A stretch of 52,042 nt of DNA from a virus (Duplodnaviria > Caudoviricetes): positions 1 through 52,042 of IMG/VR virus record IMGVR_UViG_3300044591_001148; one strand, given 5' to 3'. How positions within the stretch are numbered: the first letter of the stretch is position 1; every line of letters begins with the position of its first letter. The notes under the pieces were generated by a model. It was given only the letters and a program-made list of their open reading frames with translations, had not been told where the DNA came from and ran no database searches. The translations under genes and the position numbers were made by a program. Positions 15,539 through 46,493 of this stretch are shown here, piece after piece.

Positions 15539-15759
15539 CTCTACAAGAAGATGAACGTAAGACGCTGAAGGCGCACATCCTCTGGCTGGGGACTGAGTTG
15601 GAGAAGTCCAGACTCCAGTGCCGAGCCAAGACTGAATTGCTGAAGCGGATGCTGGACCCAGAGGACTTGGGACACGCAGTCAGTAACGAGGTTCGCGCCA
15701 GCATCTACCAAATCCTCATCGAAGACAGTCACAACGAAAGAGACGCATGGAACAGATAA
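15535..15759 (+). CDS. Hypothetical protein
   Basis: ATGA overlap with the resolvase stop; LDPEDLGHAV motif. Confidence 0.6.
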   Translation: MTLQEDERKTLKAHILWLGTELEKSRLQCRAKTELLKRMLDPEDLGHAVSNEVRASIYQILIEDSHNERDAWNR

Positions 15760-16820
15760 AACAGACACTGCTAAGACCAAGTGCTGCTGGACGGTGGATT
15801 GCTTGCCCTGCAAGCGTCCAACTGTCAGCCAAGATGCCAATGGGAGAGTCAGGTGCTGCCGCGCAGCGGGGGACTGCAATTCACAGTCTCTCAGAGTCTT
15901 GTTTTATGACCTCCAGCTTGCCAGAGGAGTGGCTGGGCGTGGAGGTGGAGGGTGTCAGGATGGACGAGGAGGCCATCACCTACGCTCGCAAGCACTTGGA
16001 CTACATTGAGGGTGAGGAGAAGCGTTTGGGTAACGTATTTGTTGAGCAGTACGTCACTGCCCTAGACACGCACAACGTCCGAGTTGCGGGTACTGCTGAT
16101 GTCCTGGGCTGGTCAGATGACACTGGTGAATTCGTCATTGGTGACCTGAAGACAGGGCGGGGATACGTTGATGCTGACAGTGACCAGATGCGTATCTATG
16201 CACTCGGCGGTATGCGTCTGGCAAAGAAGACATTCAAGACGGTGACAATGACCATCGTCCAGCCAGTGCATGGCGTTAACCGCAGTCACACCATGACGGT
16301 CAGTGAGTTGCTCAAGTGGGAGCGCAATGTCCTGATTCCAGCTGCACAGGCTGCAATGGCACCAGACCCCAAGGTAGTACCAAGTGAATCAGCCTGCCAG
16401 TGGTGTCCTGCCAGGGCCATTTGTCCAGCGCACATTGAAACATTTACTGAGCTGGCTGAAGCAGCCTTACCGCAGGCACTCAGCAATGAGCAGTTGGCGT
16501 CCTACCTGAACCAAGTCTCCAAGGTTGAGGCGTTCATCAAGGCACTTGAGACTTACGCAGTCAAGTGCATCAAGGACGGTGCAGCAGTACCAGGCTGGCA
16601 GATGGGGTCCAAGAAGTCAACGAGGAAGTGGACTGATGAGACTGAGGCTGTTGGTGCCTTGGTGCTGGCTGGACTCACTCAAGACCAAATCTATCCAAGA
16701 GAAATCATATCGCCAGCAGTTGCTGAGAAGTTGCTGAACGATAAAACAGTCACGGAAACCTTGACAACCAAGGTGTCCAGTGGACTCACCCTATGCCGAG
16801 CATTCGGCATTGGTGAGTAG
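15747..16820 (+). CDS. PD-(D/E)XK nuclease, DUF2800/Cas4-like
   Basis: PS..RWIACP, GTAIH, GTAD, DLKTG, QMRIYA, CQWC-x5-C motifs. Confidence 0.85.
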   Translation: MEQIKQTLLRPSAAGRWIACPASVQLSAKMPMGESGAAAQRGTAIHSLSESCFMTSSLPEEWLGVEVEGVRMDEEAITYARKHLDYIEGEEKRLGNVFVEQYVTALDTHNVRVAGTADVLGWSDDTGEFVIGDLKTGRGYVDADSDQMRIYALGGMRLAKKTFKTVTMTIVQPVHGVNRSHTMTVSELLKWERNVLIPAAQAAMAPDPKVVPSESACQWCPARAICPAHIETFTELAEAALPQALSNEQLASYLNQVSKVEAFIKALETYAVKCIKDGAAVPGWQMGSKKSTRKWTDETEAVGALVLAGLTQDQIYPREIISPAVAEKLLNDKTVTETLTTKVSSGLTLCRAFGIGE

Positions 16821-23301: not shown

Positions 23302-23981
23302 ACCCTCCCATTGTCATCAGCACCGTCCACGGTAAGGGTTTACCCGTACTGCTTGAGAGTATCAGGCAGTACGCACCTGACGTTCAGGTGTATCTCAAGG
23401 GTCCAGAGAATGTGGTTAGCGGATACGGCTGCACACTGATATTGGGTGAGCCAAGTAACTTTGGTGATGACTACAACGCAGTGATTCGCAGGGCGTTAAG
23501 TGATGGTTATGGAGCTGTAGTGATTGCGAATGATGATATTGTCTTGACGCCAAATAGTTATAGGATGTTGCTGGACGATGTTGCTATTTGCAAGGAGTTA
23601 AACCAGAACCCTGGACTGGTGGCGTCAAGGTCCGATGCAGTCAGGCCGTACCAGAATATCAGGTGGAACAACGGGGAAGAGCTGAATAATATGCAGTTCA
23701 CGCATGAGTCATTTGTCAGGCCGTTGTCTGTAGTGAGTCCGATATTTGCTTGGATGAGTGCAGAGGCGTTTGAGGATTGTCAGTTCCCGCCAATCAATTA
23801 CTTCAGCGATGATGTTATTTGCGCTGACTTGGAGAAGAAGGGCTACAAGCACTTTCTAAGTGCCAGCTACGTTCACCACATTGGCAGCAGCACCATAGGC
23901 CGGGATGCATATCAGTTGACGCTGGCGGCTAAACCTTGGATTGACAAGAATCGTCCAACCTACGCAAAAGAATGGTTTTGA
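23298..23981 (+). CDS. Glycosyltransferase (GT-A / GT2-like)
   Basis: IANDDI DxD-type motif, YFSDD, VHHIGS. Confidence 0.7.
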   Translation: MNPPIVISTVHGKGLPVLLESIRQYAPDVQVYLKGPENVVSGYGCTLILGEPSNFGDDYNAVIRRALSDGYGAVVIANDDIVLTPNSYRMLLDDVAICKELNQNPGLVASRSDAVRPYQNIRWNNGEELNNMQFTHESFVRPLSVVSPIFAWMSAEAFEDCQFPPINYFSDDVICADLEKKGYKHFLSASYVHHIGSSTIGRDAYQLTLAAKPWIDKNRPTYAKEWF

Positions 23982-23982
23982 A

Positions 23983-26037
23983 ATGGAAAATCTAAACACC
24001 GACACCCAGGCCGTTGAGGTGATGGACCTGGACGAGCTGCAGGGCATCATCAACATGGAGCTGACCGATGCAGTCAGCTACATTGACACTGACCTGAGTC
24101 CCATTCGAGCCAAGGGTACTGAGTATTACCGAGGCGATTTGTTCGGCACCGAGGAAGAGGGACGTAGCCAGGTGGTGGCAATGGAGGTGCGCGATACCGT
24201 TAGCGCCATGATGCCAAGCCTGATGCGGATATTCTTCAGTTCAGAGAACACAGTCGAGTTTGTGCCAACGGGACCAGAAGACGTTGCCAACGCACAGCAG
24301 GCCACCGACTACTGCAATTTTATTTTCAACAGCGACAACAACGGTTTCCTGACCACCTACGCCACCTTTAAGGATTCACTGGTGCGGAAGTGCGGGATTA
24401 TGAAGTGCTGGTGGGAGGAGGACGAGACTGTCCGGATCGAGGAGTATTCTGGCCTTGATGACCAGACCCTGCAAATCCTGATGCAAGAGCAGACTGATGT
24501 GATGGTGATGAACACCTATCCTGACCAGATGATGGGTCAGTTGCACGATGTCCAGATCAAGCGCAAGATCAAGGGCGGACGGGTGCGGATTATGTCTGTG
24601 CCGCCCGAGGAATTGCTGCTGGACCGCCGAGCTAGGTCATTTGATGACTCAGCCATCATTGCCCACCGCCAGATGGCGACAGTGGCGCAACTGATTGAGT
24701 TGGGCTACGACGAGGACGAGGTGCGGGAGAACATCACCAGCACCGACTTGGACACAAACGAGGAGTACCTGGCGCGTCAGCCTGTGAGTGCCTTTGGTGT
24801 TTCTGCTGAAAGCGCCAACCCCATGATGGAGCGAGTGCTGTACGTTGAGGCGTACCTGCGGATTGACTACGACATGGACGGGATACCCGAGCTGAGGAAA
24901 ATCTGCTGTATCGGCAGCGGCTACAAGATTAAGCGGAACCTGCCAGCGTCCTACATACCCTTCATTGACTTCCCCTGTGACCCCGAGCCACACACCTCAC
25001 CCTTGGAGGCCATGTCCATCTTTGACATTACGCATGACCTGCAAGAGATCAAGAGCGAGATTCTTAGGAATACCTTGGACAGCTTGGCGCAGAGCATCCA
25101 CCCAAGGACTGCCATTGTGGAGGGTCAAGTCAACATTGAGGATGTCCTGAACAACGAGACAGGCGCAATCATCCGCATGAGGGCGCCCGGCATGGTGCAG
25201 CCGTTCAGTACGCCATTTGTGGGACAGGCAGCATTCCCGATGCTGGACTACATGGACCAATTGCGTGAGGACCGTACTGGCATGAGCAAGGCGGCTATGG
25301 GACTGAACGCTGACGCCTTGCAGTCCAGCACCAAGGCGGCAGTGGCAGCAACTATCTCAGCCAGCCAAGGCCGCATTGAGTTGATCAGCCGCATCATGGC
25401 TGAAGGGATGCGGAAGCTGTTCAAGAGCATCTTGTTCTTGGTGACCACCCACCAGGACAAGGCTCGCATGGTGCGCCTGCGTAATGAGTTTGTGCAGATT
25501 GATCCGCGAGCCTGGGACGCTGCGATGGACTGCTCCATCAACATTGGCATGGGCAACGGAGACACCAACGAGCGCGTGGCGGCACTGATGCAGATCAGCG
25601 CCAAGCAGCAAGAAGTGCTGACCCAGCTTGGTGTGGTGAATCCCCTAGTGACGCCATCACAGTACAGCAGCACCTTGCGGAAGATTGTGGAGCTGAACGG
25701 GTTTAAAGACCCAAGCCAGTTCTTCAACCAGATACCCGCCGACTACCAGCCGCCAGCACCACCCGCACCCAAGCCAACACCAGAGGAGATGCTGGCGCAG
25801 GTTCAGGCACAGAGCATACAAGCCGACATCCAGAAGAAGGCAGCAGAACTTGAACTCAGCCGCCAGAAGATGGTGATGGACGATGACTTTGCGCGAGACA
25901 AGATGTACCAAGAGATGGCTCTAAAGAAGTACGAGCTGGAGCTGAAGTACAACACCCAAATCAGTACGGCTGAGATTACGGCTCAACAGAACATTGACCG
26001 TGAGATGCTTAAACAACAAACAGGAACCTTTCAATGA
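23983..26037 (+). CDS. Portal protein
   Basis: ~684 aa; YYRG, GRSQVV, VPPEE motifs, Gln-rich C-terminal barrel; follows terL. Confidence 0.9.
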   Translation: MENLNTDTQAVEVMDLDELQGIINMELTDAVSYIDTDLSPIRAKGTEYYRGDLFGTEEEGRSQVVAMEVRDTVSAMMPSLMRIFFSSENTVEFVPTGPEDVANAQQATDYCNFIFNSDNNGFLTTYATFKDSLVRKCGIMKCWWEEDETVRIEEYSGLDDQTLQILMQEQTDVMVMNTYPDQMMGQLHDVQIKRKIKGGRVRIMSVPPEELLLDRRARSFDDSAIIAHRQMATVAQLIELGYDEDEVRENITSTDLDTNEEYLARQPVSAFGVSAESANPMMERVLYVEAYLRIDYDMDGIPELRKICCIGSGYKIKRNLPASYIPFIDFPCDPEPHTSPLEAMSIFDITHDLQEIKSEILRNTLDSLAQSIHPRTAIVEGQVNIEDVLNNETGAIIRMRAPGMVQPFSTPFVGQAAFPMLDYMDQLREDRTGMSKAAMGLNADALQSSTKAAVAATISASQGRIELISRIMAEGMRKLFKSILFLVTTHQDKARMVRLRNEFVQIDPRAWDAAMDCSINIGMGNGDTNERVAALMQISAKQQEVLTQLGVVNPLVTPSQYSSTLRKIVELNGFKDPSQFFNQIPADYQPPAPPAPKPTPEEMLAQVQAQSIQADIQKKAAELELSRQKMVMDDDFARDKMYQEMALKKYELELKYNTQISTAEITAQQNIDREMLKQQTGTFQ

Positions 26038-27249: not shown

Positions 27250-27980
27250 ATGGCTATCGTAACTAACACTTTCACGACATATTCTGCAAAGGGTATTCGG
27301 GAGAACTTGGCAAATATTATCTACAATATATCACCGGAAGAAACTCCATTCCAAAGTAATATTGGAAAAGACAGTGTGCAAAACACGCTGTACGAGTGGC
27401 AAACGGACTCGCTACAGGCTGCGGCTACCAATGCCCAGCTTGAGGGTGATGACATTGGAACCTACGACCCTGTTACCGCAACGGTGCGGATGCAGAACTA
27501 CTGCCAGATCAGCCGCAAAACGGTTGTGCTGTCCAACACCGAGGAAGTTGTCAACAAGGCTGGACGTAAGTCTGAGTTGGCCTACCAGTTGGCCAAAAAA
27601 GGCGCTGAGTTGAAGCGTGACATGGAACTGGTGATGGTTCAGAGCCAAATTGCAAGTGCAGGCAGCACCAGTGCTGCACGTACTACCGGCTCTGTCCTGG
27701 CCTTCATCAAGACCAACACTGATACAACTGGCACTGACCCGTCTTACACAACGCTGCCAAACAGCTTGCGTACCGATGGCACTGTTCGGACCTTTACTGA
27801 AACCATTCTCAAGAATGTGATTCAAAAGACCTGGACATCTGGCGGCACACCGAAAATCCTGATGACAGGTCCGGTGAACAAGCAACGCGTGAGTGGTTTT
27901 GCAGGTATTGCTGCAACCCGCTACAACATTGAAGGTGGCGCTAAACCCGCCACTATCGTTGGTGCTGCTGATGTCTACGT
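27250..27980 (+). CDS. Major capsid protein, exon 1 (DUF5309/SU10-like)
   Basis: RENLANIIYNISPEETPF, EWQTD, NYCQI, ELKRDME; similarity stops at ...ADVYV. Confidence 0.9.
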
Positions 27981-28246
27981 TAATACATGGCGTCACTAAG
28001 CAGTAATGCTTAGTTGTAACTGGGTGAATTCGGTGAACCTCCTAACTGTGAAGCCAAGCAAAGGACAATACCGAGCCAAGCCGAGAAATCGGAAGGTGTA
28101 ACGACTAGAGGCGGGAGCCTCGTAGGACCAAGCGGTCCGAAGTACCCAGCCCCTCAAACGAGGGTGAAGAGATAGTCTGATCTACCAGGTAACTGGTAGC
28201 CCCGAAAGGGGGACGAGAAAATAGCGAATCTCGTTTAACATTGATG
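27981..28246 (+). ncRNA. Group I self-splicing intron (IA-like, no internal ORF), 266 nt
   Basis: Exon ends in U and intron ends in G; P1-P9 helices traceable; core GTAACGACTA and AAGAGATAGTC; removal restores DVYV-SDFG in frame. Confidence 0.93.
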
Positions 28247-28472
28247 CAGTGATTTTGGCAATGTGACGGTGGTAGCAAACAGGTTCCAACGCGAGCGCGA
28301 TGCGCTAGTGCTGGACCCTGAGTACGCATCAGTTGCGTACCTGCGTCCTTTCCAGCAGATGGAACTGGCAAAGACGGGTGACGCTGAGAAGCGGCTGCTG
28401 ATTGTTGAGTACGGCCTGAAGATCACCAGTGAGAATGCTCACGGTCTTGCTGCCGACTTGGTAACGTCCTAA
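28247..28472 (+). CDS. Major capsid protein, exon 2
   Basis: SDFGNVTVVANRF...LAKTGDAEK..EYGL; spliced product is 318 aa. Confidence 0.9.
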
Positions 28473-28513: not shown

Positions 28514-28828
28514 ATGGAAACACGAATCTTTGACAAAGACGAGACAACAGGCATCACCAGGCTCTGGCATTACAACCCATTGACCGATGAGGCAACCATT
28601 GAGACTCAGCAGGATGTCTCCAATGTGGTGGAGGAGAACAAGGACCAGTTCAACGCTACCGACAACAAGGCCAACTGGACAGGCGAGTGGCACAAGGTGG
28701 CAAGCATTCCACTCAACATCTATTATGAATTGCAGTCCAGCGGCAAGATTACAGATCAAGCCTACATGAAACGCTGGCTTAATGACCCCGACAACAGATT
28801 CTTCAGAACACGACCAGGACAAGTATGA
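28514..28828 (+). CDS. Conserved hypothetical protein following the capsid gene
   Basis: QDV...KVASIP...WLNDPDNRFFRT pattern. Confidence 0.7.
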   Translation: METRIFDKDETTGITRLWHYNPLTDEATIETQQDVSNVVEENKDQFNATDNKANWTGEWHKVASIPLNIYYELQSSGKITDQAYMKRWLNDPDNRFFRTRPGQV

Positions 28829-29454
28829 CAATTATTGCGGTTTGCACTCCAGCGCGTGACATGGTTCACACCCAGTACGCCTATTGCTTGGTAAACATGG
28901 TGGCCTATCACGCCTGCAACACCGATGACCGCATTGACCTCAAAATCATGCAAGGTACGCTGATTCAGAATCAACGGGCAGAGCTGGCGCTGGACGCCAT
29001 GCGCGAGGGTTGCAGCCACATCCTGTTTATTGACTCTGACATGACCTTCCCGCAGGACATGATCCAGCGGCTGATGGCGCATGACCTTGACATCGTGGCT
29101 ACCAACTGCGCCAGGCGTAGGATGCCGACAGGCCCAACTGCCAAGGTTGGCAACAAGCTAATCTACAGCACCCTAGATGACCACGGTCTGCAGGAGGTGG
29201 ACACTATTGGCATGGGCGTTATGCTGATCAAGGCAGACGTCTTCAAGAAGATGTCCGAGCCTTGGTTTGAGACGCCTTGGAGAAATGACAAGCGGGGCTA
29301 TGTCGGCGAGGATGTCTTCTTCTGCCTCAAGGCAAAGGAGATTGGGTATAAAATCTACATTGATCACGATGTCTCTCGGGAAATAGGTCATGTAGGCACC
29401 TTTGAATTCCGACATGAGCACACATGGGTGGTCAAAGACCTGCAGGAGGCATAA
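28825..29454 (+). CDS. Glycosyltransferase (GT-A / GT2-like)
   Basis: LFIDSDM DxD motif, GMGVMLI, GEDVFFC, IGHVG. Confidence 0.75.
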   Translation: MTIIAVCTPARDMVHTQYAYCLVNMVAYHACNTDDRIDLKIMQGTLIQNQRAELALDAMREGCSHILFIDSDMTFPQDMIQRLMAHDLDIVATNCARRRMPTGPTAKVGNKLIYSTLDDHGLQEVDTIGMGVMLIKADVFKKMSEPWFETPWRNDKRGYVGEDVFFCLKAKEIGYKIYIDHDVSREIGHVGTFEFRHEHTWVVKDLQEA

Positions 29455-30078
29455 ATGGCACTCTCTACCTACGCCGAGCTGAAGACATCAGTTGCGGATT
29501 GGCTCAATAGATCAGACCTGACAGCGGCAATTGCTGACTTTGTGACCCTAGCTGAGTCACAGATTGAGCGCGTCCTGCGAAACAGGAATATGCTGACTCG
29601 CGGGACGGGAAACATCACCGCCGAGTACAACGCACTGCCAGCGGATTTCCTTGACGGGTTGACGCTGAAGCTGACGGGAACCAACCCCATCACACCACTC
29701 CAGTTTGAGACACTCAACAGCCTGGACCAGTTGCAAAACACCACTTACCTGTCTGCTGGCAAGCCACTCTTCTACGCCATTATCGGAACCAACTTCCGAG
29801 TCCTGCCGATACCTGACAGCACCTACGCCTACGAGATTGACTACTACGCCAAGCTCGCCAAGTTGAGCGTCAGCAACACAACCAACTGGCTGTTGACTCA
29901 GGCACCAGACATCTACCTGTACGGCTCATTGCTGCAGGCTGCACCTTACTTGCAGAATGACGAGCGCATACCTGTGTGGGTGGCGCTGTACACCAAGGGC
30001 ATTGAAGACTTACGCCTCGCTGACAACAGGTCCAATCAGGCAGGAACTATGCTTGCTCGCGCAAGAACACTAGGATAA
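29455..30078 (+). CDS. Head-tail adaptor / tail tubular protein A-like
   Basis: TYAELK..VADWLNRSDL, LPADFL, NWLL..APD.YLYGSL motifs. Confidence 0.75.
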   Translation: MALSTYAELKTSVADWLNRSDLTAAIADFVTLAESQIERVLRNRNMLTRGTGNITAEYNALPADFLDGLTLKLTGTNPITPLQFETLNSLDQLQNTTYLSAGKPLFYAIIGTNFRVLPIPDSTYAYEIDYYAKLAKLSVSNTTNWLLTQAPDIYLYGSLLQAAPYLQNDERIPVWVALYTKGIEDLRLADNRSNQAGTMLARARTLG

Positions 30079-40637: not shown

Positions 40638-43600
40638 ATGGGCTTTAAAACCGCAACCAATCCGGAGACCGGAGAACGTGTTGTTTTGGTGGGCAATCGG
40701 TGGGAGCCGTTCACGAAGTCGGCCACCAACGACGCCGGCGACAAAGCGTATCTGGTCAACAACAAATGGGTGACCGACGAGCTTGCCGCCGAGGCAGAGC
40801 CATCGCCGGTCGCTGCAGCGCCGACCACCGCAGCGCCAACCACCGCCACGCCGGCAGCGCCAACCGCCGTTGCTGCCCCGCCCGCCGCCACGCCCAAAGC
40901 CGTTGCACCCAAAGTCGCAGCGCCGGCCGACAACCGCAGCGCTTTGCAAAAGATGCGGGACTTCGTATCGCCCGAATACAAGAGCGTGCTGGAGACAGCG
41001 CCCGTGCCAACAGCGCAACAGCAACAGGCCGAAATCGACAAACGCCTGAGCTACGGCGCCGGACCTATCAGCCGCGAGACCGTGGCCAAGGCCGACCAAA
41101 TGCGCATGGGTCGCGTGCCGGTTGAGCCGGGCCCCGCGCTTACTGTTGCCAAGGTTCGCGAAGCCGAGGGCGCTGAAACTTTTGACCAATTGGCTCAAAG
41201 ATTAAAACGCGACGATCTGCTACAGCAAGAAACCCAAACTGCCCGTCGCCAAGCCTTTGCTGAAGAAAACCCATTGCTTGCCAGCGCTGCTGCTGGATCC
41301 GCAGGTTTGGTCAGCGGCGCCTTAAACATTCCAAGCGTAACGGCCGACGCCTTTAACCAGACGTTTGTCAATCCCGCTTTGCAATTGGCCGGCTTAAAAC
41401 CTTTGGCCAAAGTGACTACTGCGTTTGGCACTGAATACCTTGCCAAAAGCGCACAAGATTTCATGCCTAAGATTGGCACGCGCAGCATGGAAGGCGCATG
41501 GAAAAACGAAGAGTTTTCCCCATGGCTTATGTCCAAGCTGGCGGCCAACTCCCCTCAAATGGCTCAACAATTGGTTGCGGCTTTTGTACCCCCGCTCCGC
41601 GTAGCCTTGCTGGGCGGCATGGGCGGAACAGCGGCCGGCCAAAGCTACGCGCAAGGCGATGACTCCCGCGTGGCCATAGCCAAGGGTGCGCTTGAAATTG
41701 GCACAGAGATGCTGCCGTTAAAAGTTTTTGACAAACTAGGTGACGTGTTCAAAGGCATGTCGGTTGCAAAGCAAAACGCCGTGATGGCAATTGCTGGGCA
41801 ACGGCTAGTCCAAGCCGGTGCCGCGATTACTGCCAACGGCATCACCAACGCCATTGAAGAAACGGCCGCTCAGTTTGGCGGCAACGTGCTTGACAAGTTT
41901 TTCCAAGGCAAAGACATTGAACTGAGCAAGGGCCTTGGCGAGGCTGCTGTGCTTGGCGCAGCTACTGGCACCGCCATGTCAGGTTTGCAAGTTGCCAGTA
42001 TCGCTAGGGGCGCATACGACCCCAACGTACAGATTGCCCGAGCCATTGACCAGAACGTCGCCGGCACGCAGTTCACTGGCACCGACCAAGCCGCGCGTAC
42101 CCTGCTCAGCGCGGACACATACGACGCCCGGCTGATCAGCCCCCTGATGACAGCGGACCCTTCTCGCGTTCTGCAGTCAACGTCGGTCGACGAGGCGGTC
42201 ACGTCGGCGAATGAGTTGGCCGGATCTCTGGAGATCACGCCGGGCCCGGTCGGGCCTACTCTTGACCTCAACGCGCCGGCCCCAGCTGGCGCTTTGGGCC
42301 CAAGCGGCCCTACCCTTGACCTCGACGCGCCGGTCCCAGCTGGCGCCTTGGGCCCGATTGAGCCTACTTTTGACTTCGACGCGCCGGCCCCGGCGGGCCT
42401 CTTGAGCCCGAGCGGCCCTGCGCTTGGCGCCGAGCCGCCGACGCTGCCACGTCTAGCTGAGCGCACTTCTGACTCGGACCTGCTGGCCCGGGTCACCGGT
42501 CAGGTGCCTGAGCTTGCCGGCCTGACCGCGCCACGTCCGCAGAAGATCCAAGGTGTTCCAGTCGGGGATCTGTCCGATGAGCAGCTGACCACCATCGCAG
42601 CCGATGAATCCGTCCCCGCAATCACCCGCAGGGGCGCGTCAGTTGAGCTCACAGCGCGTCAAACGGAGGCGGCCGGTACTACCCCAGCCTCTGGACTTAC
42701 AAACGCTCCCAGCGTAACATTGCCCGATGCAGCAACCACCCAAGACTCAGGCGCCATTGCCGACAAAACCCTCACCCTCCCGGCAGCGCCAATGCGGGGT
42801 GTCCCTCCTACGTCAGTGGGAGGAGTCGCTGACGGAGACGCAGCGAGAGCAGCTGCCACAGAGTCTTTGGGAAGATGGGCAGCTTCCACTGGTGAAGTAA
42901 ACCTACCCGCGGTCTTCAACGCCCCGACCCCAGAAGCCGCCACTGCGGTCGCCGGGATCGCCGAAGCACTGGGCACCCAGTTCAAGGGCAGGGTATTTGC
43001 ATACAACGACGATCGGGCGGACTCGCTCAACGGCATTGCCATTGGCCGGGTTGCCTTTGTCAACACCGGCAGCGTTGACATCAACATCGGTCGCACCGCT
43101 CTTCACGAGTTCCACCACACGGTTGAGCAGATCGCCAAGCTGGAGTCCAAACAGGGCATGGCCAACACGCCGGCCCAGCGTTACGTGGCCAGCATGAAGG
43201 GTATCTTTGCCGGCATGGACCCGGCCGGCAAGCGTGCCTACCTCACAAACTTCCTGCACAAAGACGAGTTGGCCGCGATAGCCGACCCTGTTGCGCGGGA
43301 GCAACGCCTGCAAGAGCTGGTGTCGCTGCCAAATACCGAGTCTGAAATGATCGCCGACTTCCTCGGCAACAGGGCAACAGACAAAAGATTCTGGAAAGAT
43401 GTGGCCAAGACGGACCCGCAAGGGTTCAAAGGTTTTGTCGACAAGTGGATCGGCATCATTGACAATCTGTTGGCCGCGTTCAGGGGTAAAGCCAACCAAG
43501 GGAAGAAGGAGTCTGCCCGGGTTGACAAGTACGTCCAAGATTTAAAAGCGGCAAAGGTCATAGCGCGAGACGCGCTCATTGAATACAGCAAAGGGGTCAG

Positions 43601-45992
43601 AGATGGAAGCATTAACGTTGCAGCAGGTCAAGACGTATCAGAGCCTGCAGCGTCAGCTCGACCAGTCGCTTCTGGAGATGGGGGCGGTCAAGCCCCAGAA
43701 TACGGAACAGCCCGCGAAGGCGCCATCTCAGTTCTCGGCCGCCACTACTCAACCGAAACCAGATCTTCGTTAAGCGGAATTTTTTATGGGACTGGCCTCA
43801 AAGGTGCAGAGCGGGATCGACTGGACGGTAGCCCAGATCCTCGCCTCAAAAACCGCATTTACTTCTATGTTGACCAAGGCTCCGGAATCAGGCCCGAGTC
43901 CGGGGTTGGCGGCATCGCACACGAAGTCCAGCTCAACAACATCTACGACCCCAAAACCCAAACGCTCCCGGTTAAAGGCAATTTCAACGCCTTTGAATCG
44001 TCAGTAATCAACGCTGGTTTTGACGGTTACATCGCTCCCTTCGGCAACAACCAATCTGCCGTAGTCCTGCTGGGCCCGCGCCACTCAGCCGTACCCGTAA
44101 GACCTCTGGGTCGCGTGGCCGGTGCCCCAGCCCCTGTCACAGCCGAACCGACGACGCTGAAGAAGGGGCTCCTGTCCAAAGAGCTGGAGGCCATCGAGGC
44201 TACCCGCGTGCCCGGCGCCCGAGTGCGCAACGGCAATTTGGAGATCCCAACCGGGTCACGCGAAGCGGCCAACGCAGAACTGGAGCGCATCGGCAGCGAC
44301 GTCAGGTTCAGCGAAAAACAAGCAGAGCCAACCGATCTTGGTACGTTCCGCGATGTGGCCAAAAGTCTTGGCCTATCCGAAGAGCAATACAACGCGTCTG
44401 TCTTGGGCCTAATGACCGGCAAAACCAAGGACGCCGCGTTTGAAGCTTCTCGGGTTGGCGGCATTCCGGAAGTCGTCCAATGGTTGGACCAACGGTACCG
44501 TGACGCGGGCATGCCAGTCCTTGACTTGAAAAACGCCGAAGACCGAAGCAAGCTGGCCCACATGTTGGCGGGCGAGGCCGTTGGCGCAATCCGCAGCGCA
44601 GGCAATGCCGTCGAATGGTATGACGAAACCGTGGCCAAAACATTGAGGGTGATGGCGGTTAAATACCCAGAGCTGAACACGGACCAAAACGCACGCAACG
44701 CGTTCTTGATGGCCGTTGCCATTTCGTCCCAGACGATGAACGTGGAAGACAACCTGCGTTACGCCTCAAGCCAGTACGAAGCCTTCCGCCAGTCGCAGCA
44801 ATTTCCCGAAGTTGGCACCGGCAAATCCGCCCCGGCCATGGCCAAAAACTTTGCACTGGCCAACAGCCTGTTGAAAGAATTGGGCGCTGCCGATCTGCGC
44901 AGGTTCCTGCAAACGTCATTGACCAAGCGCGAGCTGGAAAGCATGGGTTTTAAGATCGGCGGCGAGTCGATGGACGAGAAGCTTTTGGGGTCTGCCGTAT
45001 TTGGGCCCAAGATTGGATTTGGTTTCTACAGCAACCTGACCGGCAACTTTGAACCCGTGACCATGGACATGTGGTTCATGCGCACCATCGGCCGCCTCAG
45101 CGGCACGTTGCCGGCCTTTGACCCGGTCCTATTCCCCAAGCAAGTGGCCAAGCTTCGTGCCGCTTTGGCCGAAACCGGAGATTCAAGCCGTGGTGTTTAC
45201 GCGTCAGACTTCAACCGAAAAGAGGTTGTCGCTGCTCGGAAAACCGACGCGGGCGCGGTTGCCTTGGCTCGTAAAATATACAGTTTGCACAACCGGCAGT
45301 TCATCAAGGAACGTGCGGCATTTGACTCTGGCGCCCGCATCAAGACCGCTTTGGTAGGTGCGTCTGGCTCGATCATCAAGTCGGCTGACAAGCCTACTGA
45401 TGCGCCGGGCAGCGGCGGTCAGCGCCAGCTTTTGCGCAGCGTTGTTCGCGAGATGGTGGATTTGGTTGAGAAGCAAACCGGTAAACGCGTACCCCCGGCC
45501 GCTTTGCAGGCTTTGATCTGGTACCCGGAGCAGGAGCTTTACAAAAAGCTGGGCGTAAGGCTTCGGGTGACTAGCCAAGATTATGCGGGTGCGGCACAAT
45601 CCCTTTTAAAGAAAGAAGGCTTCGATGGAAAACGAATTAGCGCAGCAGCCAAATCTGGACCAAGACCAGCACAACCAGTGGCTGCAAAGCAGAACGCCAG
45701 AGCAGCTAGACCGGTTAGCGGTGCGGGTCAAAGACTGGATGCGTTCCAAGGACAGGAACGAACAAATTTCATCCAAGGAAGAGTTGAACAAACCTTAAAC
45801 AGCAAGGCAAATGCTACGCCCCTTGCCGACCTGTTTACCGGATTGGAGAAGCGCGGTTTGGCAAAAACTAAGACCGAGGGTTTGGTCAATCGCCGGCCCG
45901 ATGCCTCTCAGATTCGATACGTGCAAGACAATTTCCTCGACATCCTCGACGAGCTGGACACCTCTGGCAAAGTCAAAATCAACTGCAAATAA
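40638..45992 (+). CDS. Giant polyvalent virion protein (zincin-like HExxH, ART-like and glycosylase-like domains)
   Basis: HEFHH at 43104; HYS..IYFY..GFDGY at 43743-44030; WY..GPKI..TMDMW..QALIW at 44616-45525. Confidence 0.65.
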   Translation: MGFKTATNPETGERVVLVGNRWEPFTKSATNDAGDKAYLVNNKWVTDELAAEAEPSPVAAAPTTAAPTTATPAAPTAVAAPPAATPKAVAPKVAAPADNRSALQKMRDFVSPEYKSVLETAPVPTAQQQQAEIDKRLSYGAGPISRETVAKADQMRMGRVPVEPGPALTVAKVREAEGAETFDQLAQRLKRDDLLQQETQTARRQAFAEENPLLASAAAGSAGLVSGALNIPSVTADAFNQTFVNPALQLAGLKPLAKVTTAFGTEYLAKSAQDFMPKIGTRSMEGAWKNEEFSPWLMSKLAANSPQMAQQLVAAFVPPLRVALLGGMGGTAAGQSYAQGDDSRVAIAKGALEIGTEMLPLKVFDKLGDVFKGMSVAKQNAVMAIAGQRLVQAGAAITANGITNAIEETAAQFGGNVLDKFFQGKDIELSKGLGEAAVLGAATGTAMSGLQVASIARGAYDPNVQIARAIDQNVAGTQFTGTDQAARTLLSADTYDARLISPLMTADPSRVLQSTSVDEAVTSANELAGSLEITPGPVGPTLDLNAPAPAGALGPSGPTLDLDAPVPAGALGPIEPTFDFDAPAPAGLLSPSGPALGAEPPTLPRLAERTSDSDLLARVTGQVPELAGLTAPRPQKIQGVPVGDLSDEQLTTIAADESVPAITRRGASVELTARQTEAAGTTPASGLTNAPSVTLPDAATTQDSGAIADKTLTLPAAPMRGVPPTSVGGVADGDAARAAATESLGRWAASTGEVNLPAVFNAPTPEAATAVAGIAEALGTQFKGRVFAYNDDRADSLNGIAIGRVAFVNTGSVDINIGRTALHEFHHTVEQIAKLESKQGMANTPAQRYVASMKGIFAGMDPAGKRAYLTNFLHKDELAAIADPVAREQRLQELVSLPNTESEMIADFLGNRATDKRFWKDVAKTDPQGFKGFVDKWIGIIDNLLAAFRGKANQGKKESARVDKYVQDLKAAKVIARDALIEYSKGVRDGSINVAAGQDVSEPAASARPVASGDGGGQAPEYGTAREGAISVLGRHYSTETRSSLSGIFYGTGLKGAERDRLDGSPDPRLKNRIYFYVDQGSGIRPESGVGGIAHEVQLNNIYDPKTQTLPVKGNFNAFESSVINAGFDGYIAPFGNNQSAVVLLGPRHSAVPVRPLGRVAGAPAPVTAEPTTLKKGLLSKELEAIEATRVPGARVRNGNLEIPTGSREAANAELERIGSDVRFSEKQAEPTDLGTFRDVAKSLGLSEEQYNASVLGLMTGKTKDAAFEASRVGGIPEVVQWLDQRYRDAGMPVLDLKNAEDRSKLAHMLAGEAVGAIRSAGNAVEWYDETVAKTLRVMAVKYPELNTDQNARNAFLMAVAISSQTMNVEDNLRYASSQYEAFRQSQQFPEVGTGKSAPAMAKNFALANSLLKELGAADLRRFLQTSLTKRELESMGFKIGGESMDEKLLGSAVFGPKIGFGFYSNLTGNFEPVTMDMWFMRTIGRLSGTLPAFDPVLFPKQVAKLRAALAETGDSSRGVYASDFNRKEVVAARKTDAGAVALARKIYSLHNRQFIKERAAFDSGARIKTALVGASGSIIKSADKPTDAPGSGGQRQLLRSVVREMVDLVEKQTGKRVPPAALQALIWYPEQELYKKLGVRLRVTSQDYAGAAQSLLKKEGFDGKRISAAAKSGPRPAQPVAAKQNARAARPVSGAGQRLDAFQGQERTNFIQGRVEQTLNSKANATPLADLFTGLEKRGLAKTKTEGLVNRRPDASQIRYVQDNFLDILDELDTSGKVKINCK
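42243..42420 (+). repeat. 54-bp (18-aa) tandem repeat, about 3.3 copies
   Basis: GPVGPTLDLNAPAPAGAL / GPSGPTLDLDAPVPAGAL / GPIEPTFDFDAPAPAGLL / SPSGP. Confidence 0.85.
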
Positions 45993-46001
45993 GGGTCCAA
46001 C

Positions 46002-46493
46002 ATGACACCGACAATGATCATCTCCGCCGACCTCAAGAGCATGCTCGACGAGGCGATTCACTCAGAGCTCTACGCGTCGAACCTGTACAAGCACATCGCC
46101 AACCAGCTTCAGCGCCTTGGCTACCTTGGCGCGGCCAAATTCTTTTTAAGCGAAAGCAAAGAAGAGCTGAAGCACTACCAGTTGCACGCGCAATTTCAAA
46201 ACGACGTAGGCACGGTGGCCAAGGTCCCGATGATCGAGGCCATGAACGAGTCGATCAAGTCCTTCTCTGACGCGATCGAGCTTGGGTACGAGACCGAGCT
46301 GGAGCTGTACAACAGCTACAAGGGCTGGTACTCTGACGCAAGCGACGATCCAGTGGTCCAGCAGTTCTTGCTCCAGTTCTTGGAGTTCCAACGCACCAGC
46401 GTGGGCGAGTACGGGGACCTGCTGTCGCGCATCCAGCTGGTCGACGGAGACAAAGCCGGCATGCTCTTGATCGATCAGGAGCTGGGGGGCTAA
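46002..46493 (+). CDS. Ferritin-like protein
   Basis: Ferroxidase pattern E22, Y29, E54/E55, H58, then YETEL and FQ; C-terminal G-x-LLID helix E. Confidence 0.88.
   Translation: MTPTMIISADLKSMLDEAIHSELYASNLYKHIANQLQRLGYLGAAKFFLSESKEELKHYQLHAQFQNDVGTVAKVPMIEAMNESIKSFSDAIELGYETELELYNSYKGWYSDASDDPVVQQFLLQFLEFQRTSVGEYGDLLSRIQLVDGDKAGMLLIDQELGG

What the first reader, a model, noticed from the sequence alone, without database searches (positions are those of the whole stretch)
27981..28246. ORF-less group I intron interrupting the major capsid protein gene
Seen: the capsid ORF stops early at 27999 and resumes in another frame. Joining 27980 to 28247 gives TAC-GT|C-AGT-GAT-TTT-GGC (YVSDFG) and a 318-aa protein. 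The insert follows group I rules: exon ACGU pairs with guide GCGU (U.G wobble) and the intron ends in G. Helices traced: P2 ACTAAGCA-GTAA-TGCTTAGT; P3 CTGGGT/ACCCAG; P4 TTCGGT/ACCGAG; P7 GACTA/TAGTC; P7.1 GAGGC-GGGA-GCCTC; P7.2 GGACC-AAGC-GGTCC; P8 CCCTC/GAGGG; P9 CTACCAG-GTAA-CTGGTAG; plus two further 3' hairpins. Known: P7.1/P7.2 mark subgroup IA as in T4 introns, and classic phage introns lie mostly in DNA-metabolism genes. Inference: the most abundant virion protein depends on ribozyme splicing, and the intron has no mobility ORF of its own.
Basis: partly seen in the sequence, partly recalled or inferred. Interest (0 to 1): 0.9.

Follow-up and report, generated by a model that had tools for sequence, protein, structure and literature searches.

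The report
Self-splicing intron in phage capsid gene
A 266-base self-splicing group I intron with no gene of its own interrupts the major capsid gene of a freshwater phage; it is real and seems to move between related phages, but introns of this kind in capsid genes have been described before.

Summary
Window 27981-28246 (+) is a complete group I intron (Rfam RF00028, 76.6 bits, E 9e-18). It splits a SU10-type major capsid gene into exon 1 (Pfam profile positions 2-221) and exon 2 (221-291). Joining 27980|28247 gives a 318-aa protein that aligns without a gap to intron-less homologues. On 11 related capsid introns, 98% of cells pair and 23 of 76 pairs show compensatory changes, one of them between exon and guide sequence in P1.

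New here: 79 of the 80 closest IMG/VR relatives lack the intron. The same intron sits at the same site in other, diverged capsid alleles, 91-99% identical where exons are 69-88% identical. Clusters of silent flanking-exon changes mark the insertion site. No homing endonuclease was found in this genome or in five intron-bearing relatives.

Splicing was not shown: the RNA-library contigs are ambiguous. Capsid-gene group I introns and ORF-less phage introns are already published (mycobacteriophage LittleE, BAKA; crAss-like phages).

The parts
27250..27980 (+). Major capsid protein exon 1 (243 codons plus the first two bases of the Val codon)
   Evidence: Pfam SU10_MCP, profile positions 2-221, E 5.4e-63. 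Aligns to intron-less homologues up to ..ADVY-V.
27981..28246 (+). ORF-less group I intron, 266 nt
   Evidence: RF00028, 76.6 bits, E 9e-18. Absent from 79 of 80 closest relatives, exactly at this point. An RNA-library contig of a ~93% identical relative has exactly the 27980|28247 junction.
28247..28472 (+). Major capsid protein exon 2 (third base of Val, 74 codons, TAA stop at 28470-28472)
   Evidence: Pfam SU10_MCP, profile positions 221-291, E 1.1e-23.
27977..27993 (+). P1: exon ACGU (27977-27980) plus intron UA, paired with the internal guide UGGCGU (27988-27993). The U27980.G27990 wobble marks the 5' splice site.
   Evidence: All 11 sequences pair. In L125 exon ACCU goes with guide GGGU, a compensatory G-C to C-G change between exon and intron.
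27997..27999 (+). In-frame TAA that ends translation of unspliced RNA 5 codons into the intron
27995..28014 (+). P2 hairpin with GUAA loop
   Evidence: 3 of 8 pairs show changes on both sides.
28020..28025 (+). P3 5' strand (pairs with 28144-28149)
   Evidence: G-C to A-U at one pair in 4 of 11 sequences.
28030..28097 (+). P4-P5-P5a-P6-P6a domain (P6a has a GAAA loop)
   Evidence: P4 never varies. P5/P5a has 5 pairs and P6a has 2 pairs with changes on both sides.
28103..28107 (+). P7 5' strand GACUA (pairs with 28173-28177 UAGUC; pseudoknot with P3). Expected guanosine-binding helix.
   Evidence: Invariant in all 11 sequences, so paired but without covariation.
28108..28121 (+). P7.1 hairpin
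   Evidence: 100% paired, one pair varies on one side only.
28125..28138 (+). P7.2 hairpin
   Evidence: 2 of 5 pairs show changes on both sides.
28144..28149 (+). P3 3' strand
28151..28164 (+). P8 hairpin
28173..28177 (+). P7 3' strand
28182..28199 (+). P9 hairpin with GUAA loop
   Evidence: 4 of 7 pairs show changes on both sides.
28200..28234 (+). Two 3' peripheral hairpins: P9.1 (28200-28211, GAAA loop) and P9.2 (28213-28234). They lie beyond the Rfam match.
   Evidence: each has 2 pairs with changes on both sides. The MFE fold recovers both.
28246..28246 (+). Terminal G of the intron (omega-G), the 3' splice site
   Evidence: a G ends the intron in all 11 capsid introns examined.
28247..28307 (+). 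Exon-2 tract with clustered silent differences from the nearest intron-less relative (putative co-conversion tract)
   Evidence: Window vs L007: 10 of 65 differences lie in +0..+60 and none in the remaining 162 nt of exon 2. Binomial p 0.008.

Best explanation
Window 27981-28246 is a 266-nt ORF-less group I ribozyme intron with the subgroup IA architecture (P7.1/P7.2). It sits inside the Val codon of the conserved ..DVY-V-SDFG.. segment of a SU10-type major capsid gene, in a complete 52-kb freshwater phage genome.

How it most likely works (inferred from the anatomy): the late transcript folds into the P1-P9 core. An external guanosine attacks after U27980, which is held in P1 by the guide sequence GCGU. 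The freed exon-1 end then attacks after G28246. This joins the exons into an mRNA for the 318-aa capsid protein. Unspliced RNA stops at the TAA five codons into the intron.

At the DNA level the intron behaves as a mobile or recently mobile element. It is missing from the closest relatives, it sits at the identical site in diverged capsid alleles, it is far better conserved than its exons, and short silent exon tracts travelled with it. The likeliest route is gene conversion or homologous recombination between co-infecting phages, possibly started by an endonuclease supplied in trans, because no endonuclease gene was found in the intron or in the genome.

Shown: the anatomy, the covariation, the empty sites, the distribution and the flanking tracts. 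Inferred: self-splicing and the route of transfer.
For: Identity as a group I intron:
- RF00028 full-length match, 76.6 bits against a gathering score of 50, E 9e-18.
- Pfam SU10_MCP is split at profile position 221.
- The spliced product aligns without a gap to the intron-less capsid protein of MW202879.1.
- Covariation on 11 capsid introns: 98.0% of 833 cells pair and 23 of 76 pairs change on both sides, reached by 0 of 500 shuffles. Slid controls give 34-41% paired and 1-4 such pairs.
- Energy-only fold: z -4.49.

Distribution:
- 79 of the 80 best IMG/VR capsid relatives are intron-less. That includes alleles with 98-99% aa identity. One relative (L049) has the intron at the same site.
- In a core-motif scan, 12 of the 80 listed loci are SU10-type capsid genes with the intron at this site.

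Intron versus exon nucleotide identity:
- window vs L122: intron 99.2%, exons 87.9%.
- window vs L088, L094, L098, L115, L152, L153: intron 91-94%, exons 68-70%.

Tree: a capsid tree of 89 rows needs at least 5 changes of intron state. The window's sister row, L007, is intron-less with 98% support.

Flanking tracts:
- L049 vs its 98.1% identical intron-less relative L061: 11 of the 18 differences, all silent, lie within -18..+45 of the site. 0 of 20,000 permutations reach this.
- Window vs L007: 10 of 65 differences lie in +0..+60 and none in the next 162 nt. Only 3 of the 65 change an amino acid.
- All 10 close intron-bearing alleles share the flanks TCTACGT|..|CAGTGAT, against 1 of 79 intron-less alleles.

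No endonuclease:
- Pfam on 46 translated ORF segments found none.
- Six-frame searches of the genome for HNH, HNH_3, GIY-YIG, LAGLIDADG_3 and Endonuclease_7 found none.
- Endonuclease_7 and HNH are absent from five intron-bearing relatives' records, two of them at least 98% complete.
Against: - Splicing was not observed. The one RNA-library contig with the exact 27980|28247 junction (run X1) differs from the window by 31 letters and 6 gaps in exon 1. It may come from an intron-less relative or from DNA in the library. A contig in run X3 carries the intron unspliced at about 97% identity.
- P7 and P4 never vary, so they have no covariation support.
- P10 pairing is weak: 2 bp in the window by my reading of the sequence.
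- The shared exon flanks could partly reflect selection for P1 pairing rather than co-conversion. Position -3 lies in P1.
- The 79-of-80 figure covers only the best 80 of 595 confirmed relatives. The intron-bearing rows added to the tree were chosen by an intron motif, so frequencies are not population estimates.
- LAGLIDADG_1/2, EDxHD and PD-(D/E)XK-type homing enzymes were not specifically excluded. A PD-(D/E)XK/DUF2800 gene lies at 15747-16820.
- 16 of the 62 greedy ORFs were not scanned with Pfam.
Confidence: 0.9

Rival explanations
1. The intron is a decayed, non-splicing relic. The capsid gene is then a pseudogene in a defective phage or a mis-assembled contig.
For: No direct splicing evidence. 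The record is a metagenome assembly with no end repeats.
Against: - The full core is kept, with compensatory changes in 23 of 76 pairs across 11 contigs. This shows selection on the fold.
- Exons evolve almost only at silent sites: 3 aa changes in 65 nt differences from L007, and 0 in 18 for L049 vs L061.
- The intron-bearing allele recurs in 12 IMG/VR loci and in an RNA-library contig.
- CheckV rates the record 100% complete.
Confidence: 0.04
2. The intron is real and splices but is not mobile. It is ancestral to this capsid family and was lost precisely many times. The conserved flanks reflect only what P1/P10 pairing needs.
For: - Counts of changes on a tree cannot tell gain from loss.
- Position -3 of the flank lies in P1.
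- 4 of 79 intron-less alleles carry the AGT (Ser) codon at the start of exon 2 and could be loss footprints.
Against: - Vertical descent predicts intron divergence that tracks exon divergence. Instead the intron is 91-94% identical where exons are 68-70%, and 99.2% where exons are 87.9%.
- Flank differences at -18, -9, -6 and +24..+45 lie outside P1 yet cluster at the site.
- Loss would have to be the rule in 79 of 80 close relatives.
Confidence: 0.1
3. The intron moves with no endonuclease at all. One route is reverse splicing into capsid mRNA, then reverse transcription and recombination. The other is plain homologous recombination with no targeted break.
For: - No homing endonuclease family was found in six intron-bearing records.
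- No extra ORF lies next to the capsid gene in 12 intron-bearing loci.
- Passages read in PMC3984707 describe reverse splicing as needing only 4-6 nt of P1 complementarity.
Against: [quoted passage not shown]
- No reverse transcriptase was seen in the 46 ORF segments scanned.
- Insertion is always at one site, with DNA-type flanking tracts. That is what break repair gives.
- In the wider family, Endonuclease_7, LAGLIDADG_2, HNH_3 and GIY-YIG ORFs lie downstream of many copies, so trans-acting enzymes exist in the same viral pool.
Confidence: 0.2

Closest known systems
Group I introns of cluster J mycobacteriophages: LittleE capsid gene, BAKA/Optimus tail gene (PMC3706429, passages read)
   Same: - Group I introns in virion structural genes.
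- U at the exon-1 end and G at the intron end.
- Present in only some close relatives.
- The BAKA/Optimus intron is 265 bp and has no endonuclease gene, almost the same size as this one.
- The LittleE intron interrupts the major capsid gene.
   Different: - The LittleE capsid intron is 819 bp and holds an endonuclease ORF; this one is ORF-less.
- Splicing was shown there by RT-PCR and protein sequencing, not here.
- The hosts are Actinobacteria siphoviruses with an unrelated capsid family.
- No sequence comparison was made here.
Group I introns in MCP and other core genes of crAss-like phages (PMC7886860, passages read)
   Same: Group I introns sit in conserved core genes, including the capsid gene. 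Some capsid genes hold several introns, as does relative L122 here, which has two.
   Different: Those introns were found through their endonuclease domains, so they are ORF-bearing. They come from gut Bacteroidetes phages. This one is ORF-less and from freshwater SU10-type phages.
Subgroup IA phage introns such as T4 td/nrdB/nrdD (named from recall; PMC11835236 passage: over half of viral group I introns are IA2)
   Same: P7.1 and P7.2 lie between P7 and P3'. The size is compact. The introns are phage-borne.
   Different: The T4 introns lie in nucleotide-metabolism genes and td and nrdD carry endonuclease ORFs (recall). IA1, IA2 or IA3 was not assigned here, because no subgroup models were at hand.
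Collaborative homing of an ORF-less intron with a free-standing endonuclease: cyanophage S-PM2 psbA with F-CphI, and T4 mobE trans homing (PMC3984707 passages; PMC6083498 and PMC2790892 abstracts in a search listing)
   Same: An ORF-less intron at a conserved site could spread when an endonuclease encoded outside the intron cuts the empty site.
   Different: No free-standing endonuclease was found next to the capsid gene or anywhere in this genome.
Unannotated introns of the same sequence family in isolated phages: Rhizobium RHph_N3_13 (ribonucleotide reductase), Ralstonia DU_RP_I and Klebsiella RCIP0099 (DNA polymerase), Shewanella 1/4 (after the tape-measure gene)
   Same: 69-77% nucleotide identity over 75-177 nt of the core. 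All are RF00028 matches of 58-84 bits. Ralstonia and Klebsiella also share the 3' hairpin motif.
   Different: Different host genes and different phage groups. Some have a neighbouring or internal ORF.

Membership tests
Group I catalytic intron (Rfam RF00028) | Covariance-model match above the curated gathering score | tested here: met
   76.6 bits against 50, E 9e-18, model positions 1-253 of 253.
Group I catalytic intron (Rfam RF00028) | P1 between the 5' exon end and an internal guide sequence, with a U.G wobble at the splice site | tested here: met
   ACGU/GCGU with U27980.G27990. Paired in 11 of 11 sequences, with one exon-guide compensatory change in L125.
Group I catalytic intron (Rfam RF00028) | Intron ends in G (omega-G) | tested here: met
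   G28246. The same holds in all 11 capsid introns.
Group I catalytic intron (Rfam RF00028) | Conserved core P3-P8 with the P3/P7 pseudoknot | tested here: met
   All helices are 92-100% paired. P3, P5, P6a and P8 show changes on both sides. P4 and P7 are invariant, so they have no covariation support.
Group I catalytic intron (Rfam RF00028) | Precise removal restores the host reading frame | tested here: met
   The 318-aa product aligns without a gap to intron-less homologues. The empty sites in 79 of 80 relatives match the boundaries exactly.
Group I catalytic intron (Rfam RF00028) | Guanosine-dependent self-splicing | not testable with these tools
   The RNA-library contigs are ambiguous. 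An in vitro assay is needed.
Subgroup IA | Extra helices P7.1 and P7.2 between P7 and P3' (definition from recall; the PMC3984707 passage names P2, P7.1 and P7.2 as class features) | tested here: met
   Two hairpins at 28108-28121 and 28125-28138, 100% paired. P7.2 has 2 compensatory pairs. Rfam treats the 33 nt as an insertion at that point.
Subgroup IA | Assignment to IA1, IA2 or IA3 with subgroup-specific models | not tested
Mobile (homing) group I intron | Intron-encoded homing endonuclease | tested here: not met
   266 nt, with the longest internal + strand ORF at 31 aa. No endonuclease family was found in the genome.
Mobile (homing) group I intron | Sporadic distribution at one site, with co-conversion of flanking exon markers | tested here: met
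   At least 5 state changes on the capsid tree. Flank clusters with p < 5e-5 for L049 vs L061 and p 0.008 for the window vs L007.
Mobile (homing) group I intron | Super-Mendelian inheritance in crosses | not testable with these tools
   Needs cultured phages. No isolate with this capsid intron was found among 50,697 phage records.
SU10-type major capsid protein (Pfam PF17236) | Profile match over the whole family model once the exons are joined | tested here: met
   Exon 1 covers positions 2-221 and exon 2 covers 221-291 of 292. SU10-type portal and adaptor genes flank it.

The most novel reading that the evidence does not exclude
A single ORF-less IA-type intron lineage spreads between freshwater phages whose capsid genes differ by about 30% at the nucleotide level. 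It always enters the same codon and carries a few dozen bases of exon with it. None of the intron-bearing genomes encodes a recognisable homing endonuclease. If no trans-acting enzyme exists either, this would be a natural case of endonuclease-independent horizontal spread of a group I intron, by reverse splicing or recombination alone. The same family would also be specialised on the most conserved virion and packaging genes.
Probability: 0.2. Interest if true: 0.65.

Novelty: new member of a known kind. Interest (0 to 1): 0.38.

Why it matters
**Annotation.** The capsid gene of this phage would be called as two fragments or a pseudogene unless the intron is recognised. The same error is visible in deposited records, where the ribonucleotide reductase or DNA polymerase genes of the Rhizobium, Ralstonia and Klebsiella phages are annotated as two partial CDS.

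**Biology.** The case adds a well-resolved population picture: the empty site, the filled site, the flanking tracts, and a relative with two introns in the same capsid gene. It shows an ORF-less intron circulating among uncultured freshwater phages. It also shows that this intron family often lies in structural and packaging genes, not mainly in DNA-metabolism genes.

**Open question.** It gives a concrete system for asking how introns without an endonuclease gene spread. It does not change what is known about group I introns.

Tried and rejected
**RNA evidence.** 24 runs were listed and four RNA runs were laid, all held as contigs.
- X1 has one 1506-nt contig with the exact 27980|28247 joint, but it is about 93% identical with a 6-nt insertion. 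It may be an intron-less relative or DNA, so I do not count it as splicing.
- X1 also has a 261-nt intron contig (27997-28251, 17 other letters and 1 gap).
- X3 has a 412-nt contig that carries the intron unspliced.
- X2 and X3 contigs match only about 28074-28108 and run on unlike the window. They are other introns with the same core.
- No habitat or expression claim is made from these runs.

**Endonuclease search.**
- Pfam on 46 ORF segments found none.
- Six-frame searches for PF01844, PF13392, PF01541, PF14528 and PF02945 in the window found none.
- PF02945 and PF01844 in five relatives' records found none.
- 16 of the 62 ORFs were not scanned with Pfam, including the 1784-aa and 1327-aa ORFs.
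- LAGLIDADG_1/2 and EDxHD were not searched.

**Neighbour check.** No extra ORF lies beside the capsid gene in 12 intron-bearing loci.

**P10.** I looked for 3'-exon pairing with the guide region and found only 2 bp in the window, so I make no claim about it.

**The AGT codon at the start of exon 2.** I first thought it was exclusive to intron-bearing alleles. One search showed it in 4 of 79 intron-less alleles, so the claim was narrowed to the 14-nt flank (1 of 79).

**Rows with problems.**
- L118 has a frame problem in my exon join (one stop; 0.267 identity). Its exon identity was ignored, and its flanks were read.
- L062 was dropped from allele counts because its exon 2 is cut by the contig end.
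- L111, L113 and L125 were left out of the tree because they are partial or distant.
- L095 is the same contig as L049 and was counted once.

**Host-gene tallies.** These use the longest open frames near the motif, chosen by a heuristic and not verified as exons. One ORF can match several families.

**Not run.**
- The build_rna_model tool.
- Structure prediction.
- The large protein-database searches. They were not needed.

**Closed or unseen.**
- Supplementary files of the papers were not seen. Intron tables in the supplements of PMC12880540 and PMC7886860 may list further capsid-gene introns.
Full report
**What the window is.** The window is a whole IMG/VR virus record of 52,042 bp that CheckV rates 100% complete. 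Its GC content is 54% and a greedy call gives 62 ORFs, mostly on the + strand. The genes around the finding form a SU10-type head module:
- portal, 23941-26037 (PF23899, E 4e-193);
- an 84-aa ORF;
- a 313-aa ORF in the scaffold position;
- the capsid gene;
- a 115-aa ORF;
- an Anp1-like glycosyltransferase, 28825-29454;
- a SU10-type adaptor, 29455-30078.

**Check of the observation.**
- The capsid frame opens at 27250 and meets TAA at 27997-27999. The C-terminal 74 codons lie in another frame and end at 28470-28472.
- Pfam SU10_MCP matches the first piece on profile positions 2-221 and the second on 221-291 of 292. One gene is therefore cut at one point.
- I tried six joins that each remove 266 nt. 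Three give the protein ..AADVYVSDFGNV... Only 27980|28247 leaves U as the last exon base and G as the last intron base.
- The 318-aa product aligns without a gap across the junction to the uninterrupted capsid protein of MW202879.1 (..AADIYVSDFGNVS..).

**It is a group I intron.**
- Rfam RF00028 matches 27971-28199 over the whole model at 76.6 bits (gathering score 50), E 9e-18. It is the only Rfam match in the record.
- I wrote out the helices from the sequence: P1 (27977-27982 with 27988-27993, with U27980.G27990 at the splice site), P2, P3, P4, P5/P5a, P6/P6a, P7 (a pseudoknot with P3), P7.1, P7.2, P8, P9, and two further hairpins (P9.1 and P9.2) beyond the Rfam match.
- An energy-only fold recovers P2, P3, P4, P5, P6a, P7.1, P7.2, P8, P9, P9.1 and P9.2. 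Its z-score is -4.49 and 0 of 200 shuffles fold as well.
- I aligned 11 capsid-gene introns from different contigs (A2) and counted pairs:
  - 98.0% of 833 cells form standard pairs;
  - 23 of 76 pairs change on both sides;
  - 0 of 500 shuffles reach either value;
  - sliding the partners by 1-3 columns gives 34-41% paired and 1-4 such pairs.
- P2, P3, P5, P6a, P7.2, P8, P9, P9.1 and P9.2 all show compensatory changes. P4, P6 and P7 never vary, and P7.1 varies on one side only, so for these four the support is the model match alone.
- In the distant capsid allele L125 the exon reads ACCU where the others read ACGU, and its guide reads GGGU where the others read GCGU. Exon and intron have therefore co-varied in P1.
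- Two hairpins between P7 and P3' are the feature I recall as defining subgroup IA. The review passage read in PMC3984707 lists P2, P7.1 and P7.2 among the class-defining features. I could not assign IA1, IA2 or IA3.

**No gene inside the intron.** The longest + strand ORF in the intron is 31 aa, and 266 nt cannot hold an endonuclease.

**Distribution among relatives.**
- A protein-guided scan of IMG/VR with exon 1 found 595 confirmed relatives and kept the best 80.
- In 79 of the 80, exon 1 and exon 2 are separated only by the 3-nt junction codon, so they are intron-less. This includes 13 loci with exon-1 identity of 97.5-98.8%.
- One locus, L049, has a 265-nt insert at the same point that is 89% identical to the window's intron. 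Its exon 1 is 74% identical in amino acids.
Twelve of the 80 are SU10-type capsid genes with the intron at this site:
  - L122: 99.2% intron identity;
  - L115, L153, L088, L098, L118, L094, L152: 91.5-94.6%;
  - L095: 89.1% (this is L049's contig);
  - L111: 94% (partial);
  - L125 and L113: distant capsid alleles, 75% and 74% over the core.

**The intron is better conserved than its host gene.**

| Pair | Exon nt identity | Intron nt identity |
|---|---|---|
| window vs L122 | 87.9% | 99.2% |
| window vs L088, L094, L098, L115, L152, L153 | 68-70% | 91-94% |
| window vs L049 | 69.6% | 89% |

- A maximum-likelihood tree of 89 spliced capsid genes, 10 of them intron-bearing, needs at least 5 changes of intron state. 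Well-supported branches alone force 5.
- The window's sister row is the intron-less L007, with 98% support.
- The eight intron-bearing rows added from the motif scan were chosen because they have the intron. The tree therefore shows scatter, not frequency.

**Flanking exon tracts.**
- L049 differs from its nearest intron-less relative L061 (98.1% identical) at 18 positions, all silent. Eleven lie within -18..+45 of the insertion point. The hypergeometric p is 1e-9, and 0 of 20,000 permutations over third-codon positions reach 11 in any 64-nt span.
- Six of those eleven (-18, -9, -6, -3, +3, +6) carry the window's base.
- The window differs from L007 at 65 positions, of which 3 change the amino acid. 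Ten fall in +0..+60, none in the remaining 162 nt of exon 2, and none in -44..-1 (binomial p 0.008).
- All 10 close intron-bearing alleles have TCTACGT before the intron and CAGTGAT after it. Only 1 of 79 intron-less alleles (L025) has both.
- Position -3 lies in P1 and could be held by splicing. The other positions lie outside P1. I read these tracts as exon sequence carried in with the intron by gene conversion.

**How it might move.**
- None of the 46 ORF segments scanned with Pfam is an endonuclease of a homing family.
- Six-frame searches of the whole record for HNH, HNH_3, GIY-YIG, LAGLIDADG_3 and Endonuclease_7 found nothing at E <= 0.1.
- Endonuclease_7 and HNH are also absent from the full records behind L122, L088, L098, L152 and L111. 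CheckV rates these 98, 78, 63, 100 and 54% complete.
- In 12 intron-bearing loci the gene order around the capsid gene is the same as in the window, with no added ORF.
- The only nuclease-like gene seen is a DUF2800/PD-(D/E)XK ORF at 15747-16820. I take it, from general knowledge, to be a recombination exonuclease rather than a homing enzyme. This was not tested.
- In the wider intron family, downstream ORFs match Endonuclease_7 (8 of 66), LAGLIDADG_2 (2), HNH_3 (2), SegE-type GIY-YIG (2) and I-HmuI-like (2). Such enzymes therefore circulate with relatives of this intron.
- The review passages read in PMC3984707 describe "collaborative homing" of ORF-less introns with free-standing endonucleases. 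They describe reverse splicing as a proposed route without direct experimental support.
- My best reading is DNA-level gene conversion during mixed infection, with the source of the initiating break unknown.

**RNA.** Four RNA-library runs were laid, all held only as contigs.
- One X1 contig has exactly the 27980|28247 joint. It is a relative at about 93% identity with a 6-nt insertion typical of the 245-codon exon-1 alleles, so it may be an intron-less phage or DNA.
- An X3 contig spans 27958-28369 with the intron in place, at about 97% identity.
- Neither contig shows or excludes splicing.

**Comparison with what is known.**
- Passages read in PMC3706429:
  - an 819-bp group I intron with an endonuclease ORF in the LittleE capsid gene, spliced, shown by protein N-terminal sequencing;
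  - a 265-bp endonuclease-less intron in a BAKA/Optimus tail gene, spliced by RT-PCR;
  - a citation of a capsid-gene intron in lactococcal phage Tuc2009.
- Passages read in PMC7886860: group I introns of Delta-group crAss-like phages typically sit in core genes including MCP, and one Zeta-group MCP gene is split into five fragments.
- Passages read in PMC12880540: 2513 group I introns of about 206 nt in 136 of 139 jumbo gut phage genomes. Metatranscriptome reads supported splicing for 37 of 76.
- A passage read in PMC11835236: over half of viral group I introns are subtype IA2.
- My tally of ORFs next to 68 non-SU10 motif loci (45 upstream and 66 downstream ORFs, chosen by heuristic) gave these matches:
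  - capsid families: Gp10A-like (5), Phage_capsid_2 (4), P22 coat (3 upstream, 1 downstream), Phi29_MCP (1 and 1), Phage_capsid_4 (1);
  - other virion and packaging genes: T7-type and T4-type terminases, portal, tail tube, tape measure;
  - replication and transcription genes: DNA polymerases A and B, RNA polymerase.
- Literature searches. I found no paper on introns in SU10-type capsid genes, but I did not search for that phrase.

**Verdict.** The finding is a real, well-formed, ORF-less group I intron of IA architecture in the major capsid gene. Population evidence shows that it moves, or recently moved, between phage lineages. It is a new member of a known kind. The open point of some interest is how it spreads without any detectable endonuclease.

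Noticed in passing
L122:4380-4680 and L122:5084-5349 (homologous empty site in the window: 27583|27584): A close relative (capsid 94% aa identical) has two group I introns in its capsid gene. The first is a 301-nt intron (RF00028, 92.3 bits) at a site that is empty in the window. The second is a 99.2% identical copy of the window's intron. Removing both gives an open 320-aa capsid frame.
   Followed up: partly
L005 (Shewanella phage 1/4, KJ018209): 2231-2439, 2449-2679, 2736-2948: Three RF00028 matches in tandem (58-78 bits) lie in the unannotated gap between the tape-measure CDS and an HNH endonuclease CDS.
   Followed up: no
L002 (Rhizobium phage RHph_N3_13), L003 (Ralstonia phage DU_RP_I), L004 (Klebsiella phage RCIP0099): The ribonucleotide reductase gene (L002) and the DNA polymerase gene (L003) are deposited as two partial CDS around unannotated group I introns of the same sequence family (63-84 bits). 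L004 has the same layout, but its CDS are labelled hypothetical. In the Rhizobium phage an ORF labelled 'Srd decoy of host sigma factor' lies between the two halves.
   Followed up: partly
Neighbouring ORFs match six different capsid Pfam families, terminases, portal, tube, tape measure and polymerases. L147 has two copies 500 nt apart.
   Followed up: partly
window 46002-46493, between 40638-45992 and 46498-50481: A ferritin/rubrerythrin-like ORF (PF00210, E 5e-16) sits between two very large ORFs of 1784 and 1327 aa that I did not scan.
   Followed up: no
window 28825-29454: An Anp1-like glycosyltransferase ORF (PF03452, E 7e-11) lies two genes after the capsid gene. It keeps that place in most relatives, which raises the possibility of virion glycosylation.
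   Followed up: no
whole window, compared with records G001 and G004: The window is 52 kb at 100% estimated completeness. Intron-bearing relatives with the same head module are 36-37 kb at 98-100%. The intron-less near relative L007 lies on a 55-kb contig. Genome size therefore varies widely in this group.
   Followed up: no
L025, L019, L031, L026 (intron-less capsid alleles): Four of 79 intron-less alleles carry the AGT (Ser) codon at the start of exon 2, which all intron-bearing alleles have. L025 has the full 14-nt flank. These could be footprints of precise intron loss or natural homing sites.
   Followed up: partly
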